Below, one piece after another: positions 10,557 to 55,469 of a stretch of DNA of 64,000 nucleotides. Position numbers and translations under genes: made by a program. Below the pieces are notes generated by a model, which searched no databases, was not told the origin of the DNA, and saw only the letters and a list, made by a program, of their open reading frames with translations. How positions within the stretch are numbered: the first letter of the stretch is position 1; every line of letters begins with the position of its first letter. Source of the DNA: a virus; IMG/VR virus record IMGVR_UViG_3300022187_000017, positions 41,778-105,777 of that record; one strand, 5' to 3'.

Positions 10557-10795
10557 ATACGTCTTATGCAGCCATTCTAAATGGTGCAGTAGATTGTTGT
10601 ATAACTTCTGGAGTTATAATTAAAATAGCCTCCTTTATCGCTTCTTTACGCTGTCAAAACCAGTCTACCCCATGTTCCCAGATATAGTGCTGGGATCACT
10701 TCCACTTTTTAAACAACCTCCTTCTGGAGATAGTGGAGTAGATGGGAGTCGAACCCATGTCCAAACATAATCCACAATAATATCAACGAACTACT
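10517..10795 (-). ncRNA. ssrA: Circularly permuted (two-piece) tmRNA gene
   Basis: Minus strand. The acceptor piece comes first: TTATGTT-TGGAC-ATGGG-TTCGACT-CCCAT-CTACTCC-A (10770-10734). An intervening segment with two hairpins follows, then the coding piece GGGGTAG-ACTGGTTTTGAC-AGCGTAA starting at 10671. The acceptor stem GGGGTAG/CTACTCC has G3-U70, and helix 2a AGCGTAA/TTATGTT pairs across the pieces. The tag frame ...PEVIQQSTAPFRMAA* ends at 10564. Confidence 0.85.
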
Positions 10796-10799
10796 TTGC

Positions 10800-19884: not shown

Positions 19885-20820
19885 TCAGCTTGCCTGTTTT
19901 GTCTTTGTGAAGATCTCTCCCTTGTGTAAAGATAGGCCTAATAATTTAATATTGGCTATCATATCCTGCTTATTCCAGTATCCTTGACTGGATGCTCCAA
20001 TGATTTTACCATTGGATGCTGTTACTCTCCATCTCCACTTCCATAGCTTTCTATAGATCTCTACTGGATAAGGATGTTGTACTGGCACTTCTGTTTTCAT
20101 TGTTCTATTGTTATTTGTGTTACTATTATACTCAAACCATCTTGATTTGAACAGGAATCTCTTTCTATCTGTTCCTATCATCAGGTTAAAATAGTTTCTC
20201 TTTTTATTGAATATTCTCAATACTCTTCTTAACCAAACTCTATCAAGGGGAAGTGTAAATGAATATCTAAAGTGCTTTGTTCCTCTTAATCGAAATGTAA
20301 TCTTTTGTATCCCGAATATGGTTTTATTTCTCCAGATAAGAGGGTGACCAATTCCTTCTACTTTAAGAACATTGAGATGTTCATTTATCTCTGCACTTGT
20401 GTAGTTAGGAGTGATTAATCTTCCTAATGCTACTTTTGTATTCCATGTCCAGTTACGAAATGCTCCCCATGCATATGAAAGGAAGAATCTCTTGATAGCT
20501 CCATAATCCTCTTCAAATATCTGGTACTTGTCTCGGATGATATTTCCATACGGATCTACCTCATCATCTATCATCTCGTATACCCCATACCAATTATCAA
20601 TATGAGCTCTCTCTGGGTCTCCTCCTCCTTGTTCATCTGAATTAGAAACCCACCATAACAATAGCCACTTCCAAAGTGTTGGGTTCTTGTCAATGGATCT
20701 CCTGAAGATGTATGCTAGCCAATATAATACAAATCCTACTGGCCATAAGATTAATACTTCAACAATAAACTTGAAGAAGAAGAATTTGAAGTACATCCAT
20801 ATGTTTTCTAAATGTCTCAT
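19885..20820 (-). CDS. Membrane-associated protein fused in frame to a C-terminal YegP/DUF1508-like domain
   Basis: C-terminal VEIYR...WRWRVTASNGKIIGASSQGY.NK.D...NI is the DUF1508 pattern. There is an internal ATG at 20100 with an A-rich leader. Confidence 0.55.
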   Translation of the reverse strand: MRHLENIWMYFKFFFFKFIVEVLILWPVGFVLYWLAYIFRRSIDKNPTLWKWLLLWWVSNSDEQGGGDPERAHIDNWYGVYEMIDDEVDPYGNIIRDKYQIFEEDYGAIKRFFLSYAWGAFRNWTWNTKVALGRLITPNYTSAEINEHLNVLKVEGIGHPLIWRNKTIFGIQKITFRLRGTKHFRYSFTLPLDRVWLRRVLRIFNKKRNYFNLMIGTDRKRFLFKSRWFEYNSNTNNNRTMKTEVPVQHPYPVEIYRKLWKWRWRVTASNGKIIGASSQGYWNKQDMIANIKLLGLSLHKGEIFTKTKQAS

Positions 20821-21572: not shown

Positions 21573-22041
21573 AATTCTCTATTGATTTATTGATCTCCTT
21601 CATCATCTGATCATAATTCCCTTTGAACTGCATAGCCTCCATTCTGATCTTCATAGCTATCTTTCTAGCATATCCCTCTGGGATCTCATGTCCCTGTCTT
21701 ATACTCACTCCATTTACAATTGAATACTTCCCCATTATTGAAGAGATTCTGTTGTGAAGTAAGTAGTGCATATCATATGTATCATCTCCTAGTATATTAC
21801 TATGAGCCTGCTTCAGGCTTTTTGGAAGGATGAACATAATTGAATAGAAGTGAGATCCTTTCCTTGGAGGAGTTGCTATTGTGGATACATCGATCCCAAA
21901 ACACTTCTCCTTATCTCTCTTCAATTGATAGTGAGGAAATGGTGTTACCACCTTATCAAATCTTCCAGAGCTCTCTAGCTCCTTCTCTATTGCAAATCCC
22001 ACCATTCTAGTTTTTTGTGTATCAACTGGCCTTTCTAGCAT
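21553..22041 (-). CDS. Hypothetical protein
   Basis: ORF track. Confidence 0.5.
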   Translation of the reverse strand: MLERPVDTQKTRMVGFAIEKELESSGRFDKVVTPFPHYQLKRDKEKCFGIDVSTIATPPRKGSHFYSIMFILPKSLKQAHSNILGDDTYDMHYLLHNRISSIMGKYSIVNGVSIRQGHEIPEGYARKIAMKIRMEAMQFKGNYDQMMKEINKSIENYENISR

Positions 22042-22330
22042 CTTTTCTTTTTTTACTTCTTATTAATCCTATGTAGCATCCTAATAGGGATCCTATTAAT
22101 GAGAATATTATCACTGGGATATATCTCATGTCATGTTCTACCATCACCATCAGTACTCCTTTGGCTCCTATAGCTATTGCAATCAACCATAGAACATGAA
22201 TGAGTCCTCCAGATATAAGAGTCCTCTTGATGTCACCTTCAGCTATAAAATGAATATTCACAGTCCTAGCATATAAAAATGCCAATTGACTGAGGAATAC
22301 CACTGCTGATTCAAATATTATATCACTCAT
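22022..22330 (-). CDS. Small three-TM membrane protein
   Basis: Three hydrophobic helices ending GSLLGCYIG plus a basic tail. Confidence 0.55.
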   Translation of the reverse strand: MSDIIFESAVVFLSQLAFLYARTVNIHFIAEGDIKRTLISGGLIHVLWLIAIAIGAKGVLMVMVEHDMRYIPVIIFSLIGSLLGCYIGLIRSKKRKDARKAS

Positions 22331-22366
22331 AAATTTCTTATTGGATGTCTCCTGCTGCTTTTAATA

Positions 22367-22572
22367 AAGGGAAGGCCATCACACCTTCCCTTCTACTAAA
22401 TAAACAACAAATATAGGCCATCACACCTAATTTGTGATGGGAGGAGACTTGATTCTCCTTAGTAGCTCCCAAATTACTAACCTTTAAAAACTAACTATGA
22501 AACTTAGCTACTAATATTGCCCTTGGCAAATCCCACCTATCAGAACCCCTTCTGATATACTTTCAATGAACT
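22367..22572 (-). ncRNA. Candidate structured ncRNA locus: tRNA-like cloverleaf with a 38-nt loop, plus two repeat hairpins
   Basis: 245-bp ORF-free gap. Stems on the minus strand are TATCAGAA/TTCTGATA, GGTGGGA/TCCCATC, TGCC/GGCA, TTAGTAGCT/AGCTACTAA and GGAGA/TCTCC. The 14-bp repeat AGGTGTGATGGCCT occurs twice. Confidence 0.6.
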
Positions 22573-22575
22573 CTA

Positions 22576-22839
22576 TTATCCCTGCATAGGGATCAATCTT
22601 TTTACTACTTCTCTTGTTAAGTGATCCACTTGAACTATGAATATCCTTCCTGCTCTGATATCCTCTGCCTCTCTTATCACTCTATGGATCCTGCAGTACA
22701 TATGTCTAAACTCTGTATCTGTTTCTCCCTTTAATCTTAACCTATCCAGTAATGTAACCTGAAATAATCCTCTCCCTGTTACTCCTCTGACAGTGTGCTT
22801 CTCACCTATCATCTCACTATAAGGCTTTGTTCTATCCAT
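22576..22839 (-). CDS. Hypothetical protein
   Basis: ORF track. Confidence 0.5.
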   Translation of the reverse strand: MDRTKPYSEMIGEKHTVRGVTGRGLFQVTLLDRLRLKGETDTEFRHMYCRIHRVIREAEDIRAGRIFIVQVDHLTREVVKRLIPMQG

Positions 22840-54516: not shown

Positions 54517-55215
54517 TTAAAACTTAAATGGTAGTGAATCTGTTTTGTTTACCATACCTCCTGATACAGTGCTTCCCTCTCCCCTGATTCCTTTTATGAA
54601 TTCAATGAACATCTCAGCATTAGCCTCAGTATCTGCTGCTGCCCTGTGAGCTCCTGTTAAGGATATTCCCATTGCTTTACATATAGATCCTAGCTTATGA
54701 TTGTTATTCTGAGCTAATTCATCTCCCTTATCTTTACTTGAAGGGAATTTGAACATAGAGAGATATAGTGTATCCATCACCTGATCATTTATCTTCTTGA
54801 TAAATGCATCTCTTAGCTTCACCTGATCAAATGACAGTGTTAGGAATGGAAGGTCAAATTTTTTGATGTTATGCCCAACTAATATAGGCTTACCAAATAC
54901 ACCCTTTACACTCCATATCTTGAGTTTTTCTATGATCTCAACTGCTACCTGTTTCAAAGGAATTCCATCCTCTTCCAACTCAGCTATTGTAATCCTATGA
55001 GTATTCATGGCTGCAGAAGTATATTCTAGAGGCTCTCCAGTGATCTCATTTTTATAATATGGCTTCACCAGTGCCTCATACCTATCTATCTCTTTCAAAG
55101 TCTCTCCATCATAACAGATGAAACATACCTCTACTAATGGATTTTTTGCTCCATTAAACCCTCCAGTTTCAATATCGAATACCACAAAGTTAGGAGCTGC
55201 TCTTCCTTCCTTCAT
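54517..55215 (-). CDS. DEDDh 3'-5' exonuclease (DnaQ/epsilon-like)
   Basis: VFDIETGG, VGHNIKKFDL, DTL, AHRAAADT. Confidence 0.9.
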   Translation of the reverse strand: MKEGRAAPNFVVFDIETGGFNGAKNPLVEVCFICYDGETLKEIDRYEALVKPYYKNEITGEPLEYTSAAMNTHRITIAELEEDGIPLKQVAVEIIEKLKIWSVKGVFGKPILVGHNIKKFDLPFLTLSFDQVKLRDAFIKKINDQVMDTLYLSMFKFPSSKDKGDELAQNNNHKLGSICKAMGISLTGAHRAAADTEANAEMFIEFIKGIRGEGSTVSGGMVNKTDSLPFKF

Positions 55216-55217
55216 AG

Positions 55218-55469
55218 TTAGTCTCTAAAAACTGTTAATGTCTTACCTAACACTGTAGTATTTAATTTGATCTTATGGCCACCATATGCCTTTGGTAATG
55301 ATCCTCTCAAATAGTACTGCTGTATATCTTGAAACTTAAATACCTTACCACCTTTCTTATGGCCATATTTATGATTCAACACCTTCACTAAGATAGCTGC
55401 TGTCATCACCTCATCTCTTTTACCTAAACCCTCTGCAAAAGTTTCTAATTGATTTTCTGTTAATTCCAT
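55218..55469 (-). CDS. Hypothetical protein
   Basis: ORF track. Confidence 0.55.
   Translation of the reverse strand: MELTENQLETFAEGLGKRDEVMTAAILVKVLNHKYGHKKGGKVFKFQDIQQYYLRGSLPKAYGGHKIKLNTTVLGKTLTVFRD

What the first reader, a model, noticed from the sequence alone, without database searches (positions are those of the whole stretch)
22432..22537. tRNA-shaped scaffold presenting a 38-nt loop antisense to a translation-initiation region
Seen in the sequence (minus strand): a 7-bp closing stem GGTGGGA/TCCCATC followed by A-CAA, two linker Ts, a D-like arm TGCC-AAG-GGCA, a 9-bp arm TTAGTAGCT/AGCTACTAA, and a T-like arm GGAGA-ATCAAG-TCTCC stacked directly on the closing stem. This is the 7+5 bp geometry recognised by RNase P and RNase Z. 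In place of an anticodon loop there is a 38-nt U-rich loop. Its reverse complement reads CCCAAATTACTAACCTTTAAAAACTAACT-ATG-AAA-CTT, which looks like an A-rich, SD-less Bacteroidota start region with A at -3. I saw no matching gene start in this window. Inference: this is a natural tRNA-scaffolded antisense RNA that silences a host mRNA (for example a receptor or defence gene) at its start codon. It is my best candidate for an undescribed system here.
Basis: inference. Interest (0 to 1): 0.82.

Follow-up and report, generated by a model that had tools for sequence, protein, structure and literature searches.

The report
Conserved tRNA-shaped phage small RNA
A marine phage carries a gene-free stretch that folds into a tRNA-like cloverleaf with a 38-base loop where the anticodon should be; a related phage keeps the shape through matched base changes, so it is a real RNA, but its proposed role of silencing a gene by pairing over the start codon is only weakly supported.

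Summary
The minus strand of 22432-22537 folds as described (7-bp closing stem, D-like arm, 9-bp arm with a 38-nt loop, 5-bp T-like arm stacked on the closing stem). The only relative I could reach, a 110-kb TARA Oceans contig, keeps all four helices, with 8 of 26 pairs changed on both sides.

It is not a tRNA. ARAGORN, Rfam's tRNA, tmRNA and C4 models all fail, and the T loop (AUCAAG) and D loop lack tRNA consensus.

It lies at the 3' end of an operon, just upstream of a Bacteroidota-type TAnnTTTG promoter box.

The loop can form a 27-bp duplex (-25.9 kcal/mol) over -24..+6 of the phage's own DEDD exonuclease gene, the best of 147 start regions. Significance depends on the null used: 1/243, 13/300 or 23/147. 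In the TARA phage the loop has diverged while the target region is nearly unchanged at protein level, and pairing falls to rank 11.

My reading is a stable cloverleaf RNA, probably cut out by tRNA-end enzymes, with a possible C4-like antisense role (about 0.3). Other agents of this scan noted similar non-decoding cloverleaves in other phages. No expression data could be obtained.

The parts
22531..22537 (-). 5' strand of the closing (acceptor-like) stem, GGUGGGA. It begins with GGU.
   Evidence: All 7 pairs are kept in TARA, one by a G-C to A-U double change; the G2.U pair is kept in both.
22517..22529 (-). D-like arm, UUGCC-AAG-GGCAA.
   Evidence: Remodelled but still paired in TARA, with 3 pairs changed on both sides in the model-fitted alignment.
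22506..22514 (-). 5' strand of the 9-bp long arm, UUAGUAGCU.
   Evidence: 2 compensatory pairs, and 8 of 9 pairs kept in TARA.
22468..22505 (-). 38-nt U/G-rich loop (one C only). Contains CAU, the complement of a start codon.
   Evidence: The TARA homolog has a 43-nt loop: 15 of 38 aligned positions differ, plus a 5-nt insertion. The blocks UUUCAUA, GUUAG and UUUGGG are kept.
22459..22467 (-). 3' strand of the long arm, AGCUACUAA.
22443..22458 (-). T-like arm, GGAGA-AUCAAG-UCUCC. The 6-nt loop is not a tRNA T loop.
   Evidence: The loop AUCAAG is identical in TARA, and 2 stem pairs are swapped compensatorily.
22436..22442 (-). 3' strand of the closing stem, UCCCAUC.
22432..22435 (-). Single-stranded tail ACAA, where a tRNA would have its discriminator base and CCA.
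   Evidence: Identical in TARA.
22538..22557 (-). 8-bp hairpin UAUCAGAA-GGGG-UUCUGAUA, flush against the 5' end of the cloverleaf.
   Evidence: The 47 nt from the stop codon of the 87-aa gene to G1 differ at 1 position from TARA.
22418..22440 (-). Alternative, terminator-like hairpin CCAUCACA/UGUGAUGG. It uses 5 nt of the closing stem's 3' strand plus the tail, and is followed by a U-rich run.
   Evidence: TARA keeps CAUCAC/GUGAUG followed by UUUCUU.
22408..22415 (-). TATATTTG, a Bacteroidota-type -7 promoter box (TAnnTTTG). Probably the promoter of the downstream operon.
   Evidence: Kept in TARA as TAAATTTG. CTATATTTG recurs in at least 7 intergenic sites, and 14 of 79 minus-strand boxes lie in the 6% non-coding DNA.
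22367..22392 (-). 9-bp G+C-rich hairpin with loop UGUGAUGG. Either the terminator of the upstream unit or a 5' leader hairpin of the next one.
   Evidence: Two adjacent pairs are swapped compensatorily in TARA and the loop is identical.
55210..55239 (-). Candidate target: -24 to +6 of the exonuclease start region, including the stop codon of the upstream 83-aa gene and the AUG.
   Evidence: RNAduplex gives 27 bp (21 contiguous, a 3-nt bulge, then 6; 5 G.U pairs), -25.9 kcal/mol, rank 1 of 147 start regions.
54517..55215 (-). 232-aa DEDD 3'-5' exonuclease gene (RNase_T family), the candidate regulated gene.
   Evidence: Pfam PF00929, E = 5e-14. The start codon is confirmed by an alignment of 8 homologs.

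Best explanation
The element is a non-decoding, cloverleaf-shaped small RNA. It is encoded at the 3' end of a minus-strand operon of a roughly 106-kb marine myophage whose host is probably a member of Bacteroidota.

**Shown**
- The fold is real and conserved by compensatory changes.
- It lies on the transcribed strand.
- It sits between the last gene of one unit and a TAnnTTTG promoter box.
- The junction linkers, the T-like loop AUCAAG and the tail ACAA are sequence-conserved, while stems and loop drift.

**Inferred, step 1 (about 0.5)**
The 12-bp acceptor/T stack lets host tRNA-end enzymes cut the RNA out of the operon transcript. RNase P would cut before G1 of GGU, and RNase Z or 3' trimming would act near A103. 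This would leave a stable RNA of about 103 nt and define the 3' end of the upstream mRNA.

**Inferred, step 2 (about 0.3 for any target, about 0.2 for this one)**
The scaffold displays an unstructured, U/G-rich, C-poor 38-43-nt loop. This loop pairs over an A-rich, Shine-Dalgarno-less start region and blocks initiation, as C4 RNA does in phages P1 and P7. The best candidate target is the phage's own DEDD exonuclease gene (-24..+6 of its AUG).

The confidence given is for the whole chain, including antisense action.
For: **Fold**
- The cloverleaf is the MFE structure, z = -3.0; the 250-nt gap has z = -5.2.
- TARA homolog: 65 bits, 98% of pair cells kept, 8 of 26 pairs changed on both sides, 0-1 in slid controls.
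- An independent alignment gives 5 compensatory pairs.

**Strand**
- G.U pairs are conserved.
- The minus strand folds at -76.8 against -59.6 for the plus strand.
- 143 of 148 ORFs lie on the minus strand.
- No conserved ORF crosses the element.

**Conservation pattern**
- 18 of 52 stem bases differ between the two phages.
- 15 of 38 aligned loop bases differ, plus 5 gap columns.
- Only 1 of 18 other unpaired positions differs.

**Loop**
- Both phages keep a long loop (38 and 43 nt) that is U-rich and almost free of C, and both keep UUUCAUA.

**Candidate target**
- 27-bp duplex at -25.9 kcal/mol against -19.5 for the next start region.
- It is also the best ungapped site on the whole transcribed strand (score 45 against 32 for the next).
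- Reached by 1 of 243 dinucleotide shuffles of the loop.
- The TARA loop still ranks 11th of 147 on the same start region.

**Precedent**
- C4 RNA is cut from a longer transcript by RNase P at a GGW site, and its loops occlude a ribosome binding site (PMC5320573, read; also listed as an RNase P substrate in PMC11143913).
Against: **No expression or end data**

**Weak tRNA likeness**
- The T loop and D loop lack tRNA consensus and there is no variable loop.
- The tail is CAA, not CCA.
- ARAGORN rejects the scaffold even after I trimmed the loop to 7 nt. Recognition by RNase P/Z is therefore an assumption.

**Target significance is fragile**
- 13 of 300 random genomic 38-mers reach the same energy.
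- 23 of 147 antisense copies of real start regions do so against some other start region.

**Pairing may not be conserved**
- In TARA the target region is nearly unchanged at protein level...KTLTVFKD, stop, 2 nt, MKEGR, against ...KTLTVFRD in the window.
- The loop has changed at 15 of 38 aligned positions plus an insertion.
- With the window's target nucleotides, the TARA loop gives only -18.4 kcal/mol.
- The TARA loop's best start region in the window genome is another gene and is not significant: 38 of 254 shuffles reach it.

**Sterics**
- A 27-bp duplex cannot form inside a closed 38-nt loop without opening the arm. Cofolding gains only -7.2 kcal/mol net and opens the cloverleaf.

**Sample size**
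- Only two sequences are known.
Confidence: 0.3

Rival explanations
1. A processing and stability handle only, like a t-element. The cloverleaf is a cis signal at the operon's end that tRNA-end enzymes cut. This defines and protects the 3' end of the upstream mRNA and separates it from the next unit. The loop has no trans-acting role.
For: - It sits at the 3' end of a transcription unit, directly before a conserved TAnnTTTG box.
- Shape, junction, T-like loop and tail are conserved, while stem and loop sequences drift.
- Loop length and sequence vary.
- Plant mitochondrial t-elements are non-canonical cloverleaves that direct RNase P/Z cuts at mRNA ends (PMC1920247).
- An unchecked note from this scan, e1-5843159, reached this reading for a similar cloverleaf with a U-rich loop in another phage.
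Against: - A handle needs only the acceptor/T minihelix. Here the D-like arm and the 9-bp arm are also kept by compensatory changes.
- A loop of about 40 nt with a strongly skewed composition (about half U, at most 2 C) persists in both phages, in a genome that is 95% coding.
- t-elements keep the GGTTCRANYCC T-arm motif, which is absent here.
Confidence: 0.3
2. A protein-binding mimic or decoy. The scaffold presents a single-stranded U/G-rich loop, with the invariant AUCAAG loop and tail, to a host or phage protein. Candidates are ribosomal protein S1, an RNA chaperone, a tRNA-modifying or tRNA-cleaving defence enzyme, or a nuclease. The RNA would sequester or redirect that protein.
For: - The invariant AUCAAG loop, linkers and tail (1 of 18 positions changed) contrast with fast-changing stems. 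This suits recognition of a few bases plus shape.
- Loop composition is conserved, but its sequence is not.
- The phage also carries a tmRNA-like gene, so it does invest in translation-related RNAs.
Against: - No partner was identified. The neighbouring genes have no known family.
- The genome has no Ro60/TROVE protein and no CCA-adding enzyme.
- This is pure inference from the conservation pattern.
Confidence: 0.17
3. A cis-acting transcription switch. The closing stem of the cloverleaf competes with the hairpin CCAUCACA/UGUGAUGG plus its U-run. Whether the cloverleaf is folded would then decide termination or read-through into the next operon.
For: - The 3' strand of the closing stem plus the tail is complementary to two downstream UGUGAUGG copies.
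- The alternative hairpin with its U-rich tail is retained in TARA (CAUCAC/GUGAUG then UUUCUU), and the loop of hairpin 2 is identical.
Against: - The downstream operon appears to have its own promoter box inside this segment.
- A second strong hairpin follows in any case.
- The MFE fold keeps the cloverleaf in both phages.
- The TARA alternative stem is only 6 bp.
- No ligand or signal can be named.
Confidence: 0.1
4. A decayed or intron-containing tRNA gene, or a chance fold with no function.
For: - The topology is tRNA-like.
- Phages often carry tRNA genes and remnants of them.
Against: - ARAGORN finds nothing by default, with introns allowed, at lowered thresholds, in mitochondrial mode, or on loop-trimmed versions.
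- Rfam's tRNA model gives no score at E up to 10 at this site.
- Eight compensatory pairs show that selection keeps the present fold, which a decaying gene or a chance fold would not show.
Confidence: 0.04

Closest known systems
[quoted passage not shown]
   Same: - A phage-encoded small RNA processed from a longer transcript.
- RNase P creates its 5' end at a GGW site. This element begins with GGU in both phages.
- Its loops pair with the phage's own mRNA and cover a ribosome binding site.
- Loop differences set its specificity (PMC5320573; PMC11143913).
   Different: - There is no sequence or structure homology: RF01695 gives no hit in the genome at E up to 10.
- C4 is about 77 nt with three stem-loops and two short target loops. 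This RNA is a four-way junction with one loop of 38-43 nt.
- The host phylum differs.
- Neither processing nor repression is shown here.
t-elements of plant mitochondria and the tRNA punctuation of organellar transcripts
   Same: - Non-decoding cloverleaves placed at mRNA ends.
- They are thought to be cut by RNase P and RNase Z, sometimes leaving a stable small RNA (PMC1920247).
- This element has the same position at the end of a transcription unit.
   Different: - t-elements keep the canonical T-arm motif GGTTCRANYCC and are tRNA-derived. This element has a 6-nt AUCAAG loop and no detectable tRNA ancestry.
- It carries a large loop of conserved composition that a pure cutting signal would not need.
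Engineered tRNA scaffolds for recombinant RNA (Ponchon-Dardel type; PMC3753655 appeared in the listing, otherwise from my own knowledge) and RNase P external guide sequences (PMC11143913)
   Same: - A foreign RNA segment replaces the anticodon stem-loop of a cloverleaf, so that the cell treats and stabilises the whole as a tRNA.
   Different: - Those are artificial constructs that use real tRNA bodies.
- This is a natural element whose body lacks the tRNA tertiary-contact consensus.
Small stable RNAs of phage T4 (species 1 and 2; rnaC, rnaD), and other non-decoding tRNA-shaped phage RNAs noted by this scan
   Same: - Phage-encoded, tRNA-like, non-decoding stable RNAs of unknown function. The T4 comparison rests on my own knowledge.
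- Unchecked scan notes e1-5843159, e1-5632718 and e1-5966978 describe similar cloverleaves with large loops in other phages.
   Different: - The T4 RNAs sit inside a tRNA gene cluster. This phage has no tRNA genes at all.
- No sequence relation to any of these was tested or is known.

Membership tests
tRNA (Rfam RF00005; ARAGORN) | Recognised by tRNA detectors or the tRNA covariance model | tested here: not met
   - ARAGORN finds 0 genes by default, with introns allowed, at thresholds down to 50-60%, and in mitochondrial mode.
- RF00005 gives no hit at this site at E up to 10. Its only weak hit in the genome lies in the tmRNA-like gene.
tRNA (Rfam RF00005; ARAGORN) | 5-bp anticodon stem with a 7-nt loop, or a recognisable intron | tested here: not met
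   - The arm is 9 bp (8 bp in TARA) with a 38-nt (43-nt) loop.
- ARAGORN's intron mode does not model it.
tRNA (Rfam RF00005; ARAGORN) | 7-nt T loop of UUCRANY type, G18G19 in the D loop, and a variable loop | tested here: not met
   - The T-like loop is 6 nt (AUCAAG), the D-like loop is 3-4 nt (AAG or AAGU), and no nucleotides lie between the long arm and the T arm.
- Versions with the loop trimmed to 7 nt are still rejected.
tRNA-like substrate of RNase P / RNase Z | Coaxial acceptor plus T stack of 12 bp with a single-stranded 3' tail | tested here: met
   7 + 5 bp with no nucleotide between them, kept in both phages. The tail ACAA is identical in both.
tRNA-like substrate of RNase P / RNase Z | Actual cleavage at the predicted ends | not testable with these tools
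This needs RNA-end mapping or an enzyme assay.
C4 antisense RNA (RF01695) | Match to the family covariance model | tested here: not met
   No hit in the window or the genome at E up to 10.
C4 antisense RNA (RF01695) | Loops complementary to a ribosome-binding region of the same phage | tested here: inconclusive
   - 27-bp duplex at -25.9 kcal/mol with the exonuclease start region, rank 1 of 147.
- Reached by 1/243, 13/300 or 23/147 controls, depending on the null.
- Not clearly kept in TARA.
tmRNA tRNA-like domain | G3.U70 alanine identity pair, canonical T loop, tag reading frame, match to tmRNA models | tested here: not met
   - The G.U pair is at position 2:71.
- No tmRNA model hits here.
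- The phage's tmRNA-like gene lies elsewhere, at 10564-10779.
Bacterial Y RNA (YrlA-type tRNA mimic) | Rfam match, and a Ro60 (TROVE) partner gene | tested here: not met
   - No Rfam hit.
- No TROVE domain in the phage genome.
- The host genome is unknown.
t-element (tRNA-like mRNA processing signal) | Conserved T-arm motif GGTTCRANYCC, with ends coinciding with mRNA ends | tested here: not met
   The motif is absent; the arm reads GGAGAAUCAAGUCUCC. The motif definition comes from PMC1920247. The mRNA ends could not be tested.

The most novel reading that the evidence does not exclude
This would be one member of an uncatalogued class of natural 'tRNA-scaffolded' antisense RNAs in Bacteroidota phages.

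A fast-evolving cloverleaf is released by host tRNA-end enzymes. It displays a G.U-tolerant, U-rich loop that covers the Shine-Dalgarno-less start region of a phage early gene, here the DEDD exonuclease, to time that gene's shut-off. Loop and target would co-vary between phage lineages, as C4 loops do between P1 and P7.
Probability: 0.2. Interest if true: 0.75.

Novelty: new variant of a known kind. Interest (0 to 1): 0.55.

Why it matters
If the RNA is made and processed as inferred, it would show that phages of Bacteroidota use the host's tRNA-maturation enzymes to make stable regulatory or structural RNAs from operon transcripts. Translation in these hosts starts on A-rich leaders without Shine-Dalgarno pairing, and small-RNA biology there is poorly known.

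A natural counterpart of the engineered tRNA scaffold would also be a useful expression and knock-down tool for Bacteroidota.

Even under the plain reading, the element is a new, covariation-supported RNA motif for marine phage genomes that no current family covers. It also adds to a pattern of non-decoding cloverleaves that this scan keeps meeting in phages.

Tried and rejected
**Searches for relatives**
- blastn of the 2-kb region against cultured phages found nothing.
- IMG/VR scans with the 102-aa protein, the 697-aa protein, an alignment of exonuclease homologs, and two DNA patterns from the T arm and tail found nothing.
- The capsid protein found only distant phages, 31-54% identical.
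- Covariance models R1 and R2 run over 18 and 30 such records gave no true hit.
- The two best R2 hits (27 and 20 bits) lie in unstructured, apparently coding sequence (z = +0.8 and +1.0). I rejected them.
- Homologs of the 102-aa gene in Cellulophaga and Tenacibaculum phages have no similar upstream element.

**Reaching the TARA exonuclease start region**
- I used the protein sequences of the two flanking TARA genes instead.

**Tools unavailable**

**Ideas tested and dropped**
- That the loop is the complement of a leader tag shared by many phage genes: ACTAAC is not enriched in start regions, and only the exonuclease leader carries it next to its AUG.
- That the element is repeated within the genome: it is not.
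- A shared promoter-like 17-mer upstream of the element: only 2 copies exist.
- A host target: 401 sampled Bacteroidota genomes gave 10 weak hits at E <= 0.01 per genome, where about 4 are expected. Exact 17-20-nt matches fall at the starts of three unrelated genes. I read this as generic start-region likeness.
- A small conserved ORF across the element: none.
- 'Faster than neutral' evolution of the element: stems differ at 35% against 12.8% at four-fold sites of the neighbouring genes. However, divergence between the two phages is patchy, reaching 51% within 2 kb. I read this as phage mosaicism and not as proof of positive selection.
Full report
**Setting**

The window is bases 41778-105777 of a 105,777-bp virus record, estimated 98% complete.
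- 143 of 148 ORFs lie on the minus strand and 95% of the DNA is coding.
- It encodes a portal, a major head protein and a tail sheath, so it is a myophage.
- Its closest capsid relatives among cultured phages are Bacteroides phages (40% identity) and a Chryseobacterium phage (33%).
- The gene just downstream of the element has homologs in Cellulophaga and Tenacibaculum phages.
- Its ribonucleotide reductase is closest to Saprospiraceae and other Bacteroidota genomes.
- The one close relative found is a TARA Oceans contig.

I therefore treat it as a marine phage of a Bacteroidota host. The host species is unknown.

RNAfold returns the same cloverleaf as the minimum-energy fold: -33.4 kcal/mol, z = -3.04.

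The element sits in a 245-nt gene-free gap between an 87-aa ORF (22576-22839) and a 102-aa ORF (22022-22330).
- This gap has the lowest MFE per nucleotide of the ORF-free gaps I folded (-0.31 kcal/mol/nt against -0.26 or weaker; my ORF call cut this gap short, so its value comes).
- It has z = -5.18 as minus-strand RNA and folds 17 kcal/mol better on the minus strand than on the plus strand.
- No ORF across it is conserved.

**The fold is conserved by compensatory change**

A metagenome scan with the 102-aa protein found one relative, TARA_R110000772_G_C13310332_1 (110 kb). Its copy of that protein is 94% identical. A covariance model built from the window's sequence alone hits L060:2551-2664 at 65.3 bits, E = 4e-15.
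- On the model-fitted alignment, 98% of pair cells are standard pairs and 8 of 26 pairs have changed on both sides: 1 in the closing stem, 3 in the D-like arm, 2 in the long arm and 2 in the T-like arm. Sliding the 3' partners by 1-3 columns gives 0-1 such pairs.
- Because that alignment leans towards the model, I repeated the test with MAFFT and RNAalifold. Three helices come back with 5 compensatory pairs; the D arm is lost to an indel.
- The G.U pair at position 2 of the closing stem is kept in both phages. This points to RNA on the minus strand.

Two sequences are few, but this amount of double change in every helix is not what a chance fold or a decaying gene would show.

**It is not a tRNA, tmRNA, C4 RNA or Y RNA**

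- ARAGORN calls nothing here in any mode: default, introns allowed, thresholds lowered to 50-60%, or mitochondrial. It also rejects versions in which I cut the loop to 7 nt.
- Rfam has no match at gathering scores, only noise at E up to 10.
- The tRNA model's only weak hit in the genome lies in the tmRNA-like gene.
- The C4 model finds nothing.
- The phage has no Ro60/TROVE protein and no CCA-adding enzyme.
- The T-like loop has 6 nt (AUCAAG), the D-like loop 3-4 nt, and there is no variable loop.

The likeness to tRNA is therefore one of topology: a four-way junction with a 7 + 5 bp stack. It is not a likeness of sequence or of the known tertiary contacts.

**What is conserved and what drifts**

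Between the two phages:

| Part | Differences |
|---|---|
| Stem bases | 18 of 52 |
| Aligned loop bases | 15 of 38, plus 5 gap columns |
| Other unpaired positions (linkers, D loop, AUCAAG, tail ACAA) | 1 of 18 |

- The 47 nt upstream, from the stop codon of the 87-aa gene through an 8-bp hairpin that abuts G1, differ at one position.
- Four-fold degenerate sites in four flanking genes differ at 12.8%, so the cloverleaf is a local hot spot of divergence.
- Divergence between these phages is patchy, however: median 11% per 100 nt, 35% here, and up to 51% in a gene 2 kb away. I read the hot spot as mosaic exchange of an older allele and not as proof of positive selection.
- Both loops are long (38 and 43 nt), about half U, and nearly free of C. 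Both keep the blocks UUUCAUA, GUUAG and UUUGGG.

**Context**

- Directly after the cloverleaf comes TATATTTG (22415-22408), which matches the Bacteroidota -7 promoter box TAnnTTTG. This consensus is from my own knowledge.
- TARA keeps it as TAAATTTG.
- CTATATTTG recurs in at least seven intergenic sites of this genome, and 14 of 79 minus-strand boxes fall in the 6% of the genome that is non-coding.

The cloverleaf therefore lies at the very end of one transcription unit, just before the probable promoter of the next.

Two further structures share sequence with it.
- An 8-bp hairpin, CCAUCACA/UGUGAUGG followed by a U-rich run, uses part of the closing stem's 3' strand. TARA keeps it in weaker form.
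- A 9-bp G+C-rich hairpin has a loop that is again UGUGAUGG. Its stem shows two compensatory changes in TARA.

**The antisense idea**

- An ungapped wobble-tolerant scan of the whole genome puts the best complement of the loop at 55210-55239 on the transcribed strand, with a score of 45 against 32 for the next site.
- That site is the start region of a 232-aa DEDD exonuclease gene (PF00929, E = 5e-14). Homologs confirm its start codon.
- RNAduplex gives 27 pairs (21 contiguous, a 3-nt bulge, then 6; 5 G.U pairs) at -25.9 kcal/mol, spanning -24 to +6. The next best of 147 start regions reaches -19.5.

How surprising this is depends on the null.

| Null | Controls reaching the observed value |
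|---|---|
| Dinucleotide shuffles of the loop, duplex energy | 1 of 243 |
| Dinucleotide shuffles of the loop, ungapped score | 2 of 400 |
| Random genomic 38-mers | 13 of 300 |
| Antisense copies of the phage's real start regions against other start regions | 23 of 147 |

So part of the signal is simply that the loop's complement looks like a start region.

The same appears outside the phage. In 401 sampled Bacteroidota genomes the loop's complement has exact 17-20-nt matches at the start codons of three unrelated genes, roughly as often as chance allows. No leader tag shared among phage genes explains the loop.

**The one comparative test I could make**

Cluster look-ups gave me the TARA phage's exonuclease (positions 64449-65147; it begins MKEGRAAP) and the gene upstream of it (65150-65401; it ends KTLTVFKD).
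- The junction has the same geometry as in the window: stop codon, 2 nt, ATG.
- The residues are the same except for one R-to-K change.
- Yet the TARA loop differs from the window's loop across the pairing segment.
- With the window's target nucleotides, the TARA loop gives -18.4 kcal/mol, rank 11 of 147.
- Its best start region in the window genome is a different gene and is not significant: 38 of 254 shuffles reach it.

Unless synonymous and spacer bases co-vary, which I could not read, only the block complementary to the start codon (UUUCAUA, pairing with UAUGAAR) is conserved. This lowers my odds for a conserved exonuclease target to about 0.2.

Sterically, a 27-bp duplex would also need the long arm to open. 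Cofolding gains only -7.2 kcal/mol net and opens the cloverleaf.

**Most likely mechanism**

Shown:
- A conserved, non-decoding cloverleaf RNA at an operon's 3' end.

Inferred, about 0.5:
- Host RNase P and RNase Z or 3' trimming cut at its ends, because the 12-bp stack and single-stranded tail are kept.
- The 5' end begins with GGU, like the RNase P site of C4 RNA (PMC5320573).
- This would release a stable RNA of about 103 nt and set the mRNA's 3' end.

Inferred, about 0.3 for any target:
- The displayed U/G-rich loop pairs over an A-rich start region and blocks initiation.

Rivals and my odds:
- Pure processing or stability handle of the t-element kind (PMC1920247): 0.3.
- Protein-binding decoy: 0.17.
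- Termination switch: 0.1.
- Decayed tRNA or chance fold: 0.04.

**Comparison and novelty**

In concept the closest known system is the C4 antisense RNA of P1/P7, but this element fails that family's model. It also recalls t-elements, engineered tRNA scaffolds and the T4 stable RNAs. Other agents of this scan have described similar non-decoding cloverleaves with large loops in other phages (those notes are unchecked).

I rate it a new variant of a known kind. It is a real RNA motif with no current family, and its function is open.

**Limits**

- Only two sequences are known.
- The TARA start region was not readable as DNA.

Noticed in passing
window 10564-10779 (-): Rfam tmRNA_permuted match (56.1 bits against a gathering score of 47, full length). 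ARAGORN does not call it. The tRNA model gives a weak 14.8-bit hit at 10734-10797. A two-piece tmRNA in a phage with no tRNA genes is unusual. First-stage notes e1-5976510 and e1-5976491 flagged it too.
   Followed up: partly
window 22374-22385 and 22416-22427 (-): The 12-mer GGTGTGATGGCC occurs twice, 42 nt apart, flanking the TAnnTTTG box. Each UGUGAUGG is complementary to CCAUCACA, the 3' strand of the closing stem plus the tail. These could be operator sites or parts of an RNA switch. In TARA only the second copy is intact.
   Followed up: partly
window 52756, 49710, 45480, 36709, 33026, 22415; genome 35675: CTATATTTG (TAnnTTTG type) recurs in intergenic DNA. 14 of 79 minus-strand TAnnTTTG boxes lie in the 6% of the genome that is non-coding. 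This is probably the phage's set of host-type promoters.
   Followed up: partly
L060:2760-2990: The TARA relative has about 240 extra gene-free bases between the G+C-rich hairpin and the 102-aa gene. The window lacks them. Their content was not analysed.
   Followed up: no
window 19885-20820 (-): The 311-aa gene with a DUF1508 domain is the most diverged stretch between the two phages, at up to 51% per 100 nt with indels. This is a mosaic patch 2 kb from the element.
   Followed up: no
L085:1501-1520, L088, L083:401-417: The loop's complement TTTAAAAACTAACTATG(AAA) occurs exactly (17-20 nt) at ORF start codons in 3 of 401 sampled Bacteroidota genomes. The ORFs are a 489-aa FAD-oxidoreductase-like gene, a 209-aa gene and a 36-aa gene. 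In L085 and L083 the match also spans the stop codon of the upstream gene.
   Followed up: partly
genome 1661-1749 (-), outside the window (L004): ARAGORN at a 90% threshold reports an 89-nt low-score tRNA-Gln(UUG) candidate. It was not examined further.
   Followed up: no
window 22578-22593 (+ coordinates): A 6-bp hairpin ATCCCT-ATGC-AGGGAT spans the stop codon of the 87-aa gene. It and the next 18 nt are identical in TARA.
   Followed up: no
window 22349-22360; genome 14565-14576 and 38446-38457: AGCAGCAGGAGA occurs three times on the minus strand. At least the copy here lies just upstream of a gene start and is kept in TARA. It may be a Shine-Dalgarno-like or other leader motif.
   Followed up: no
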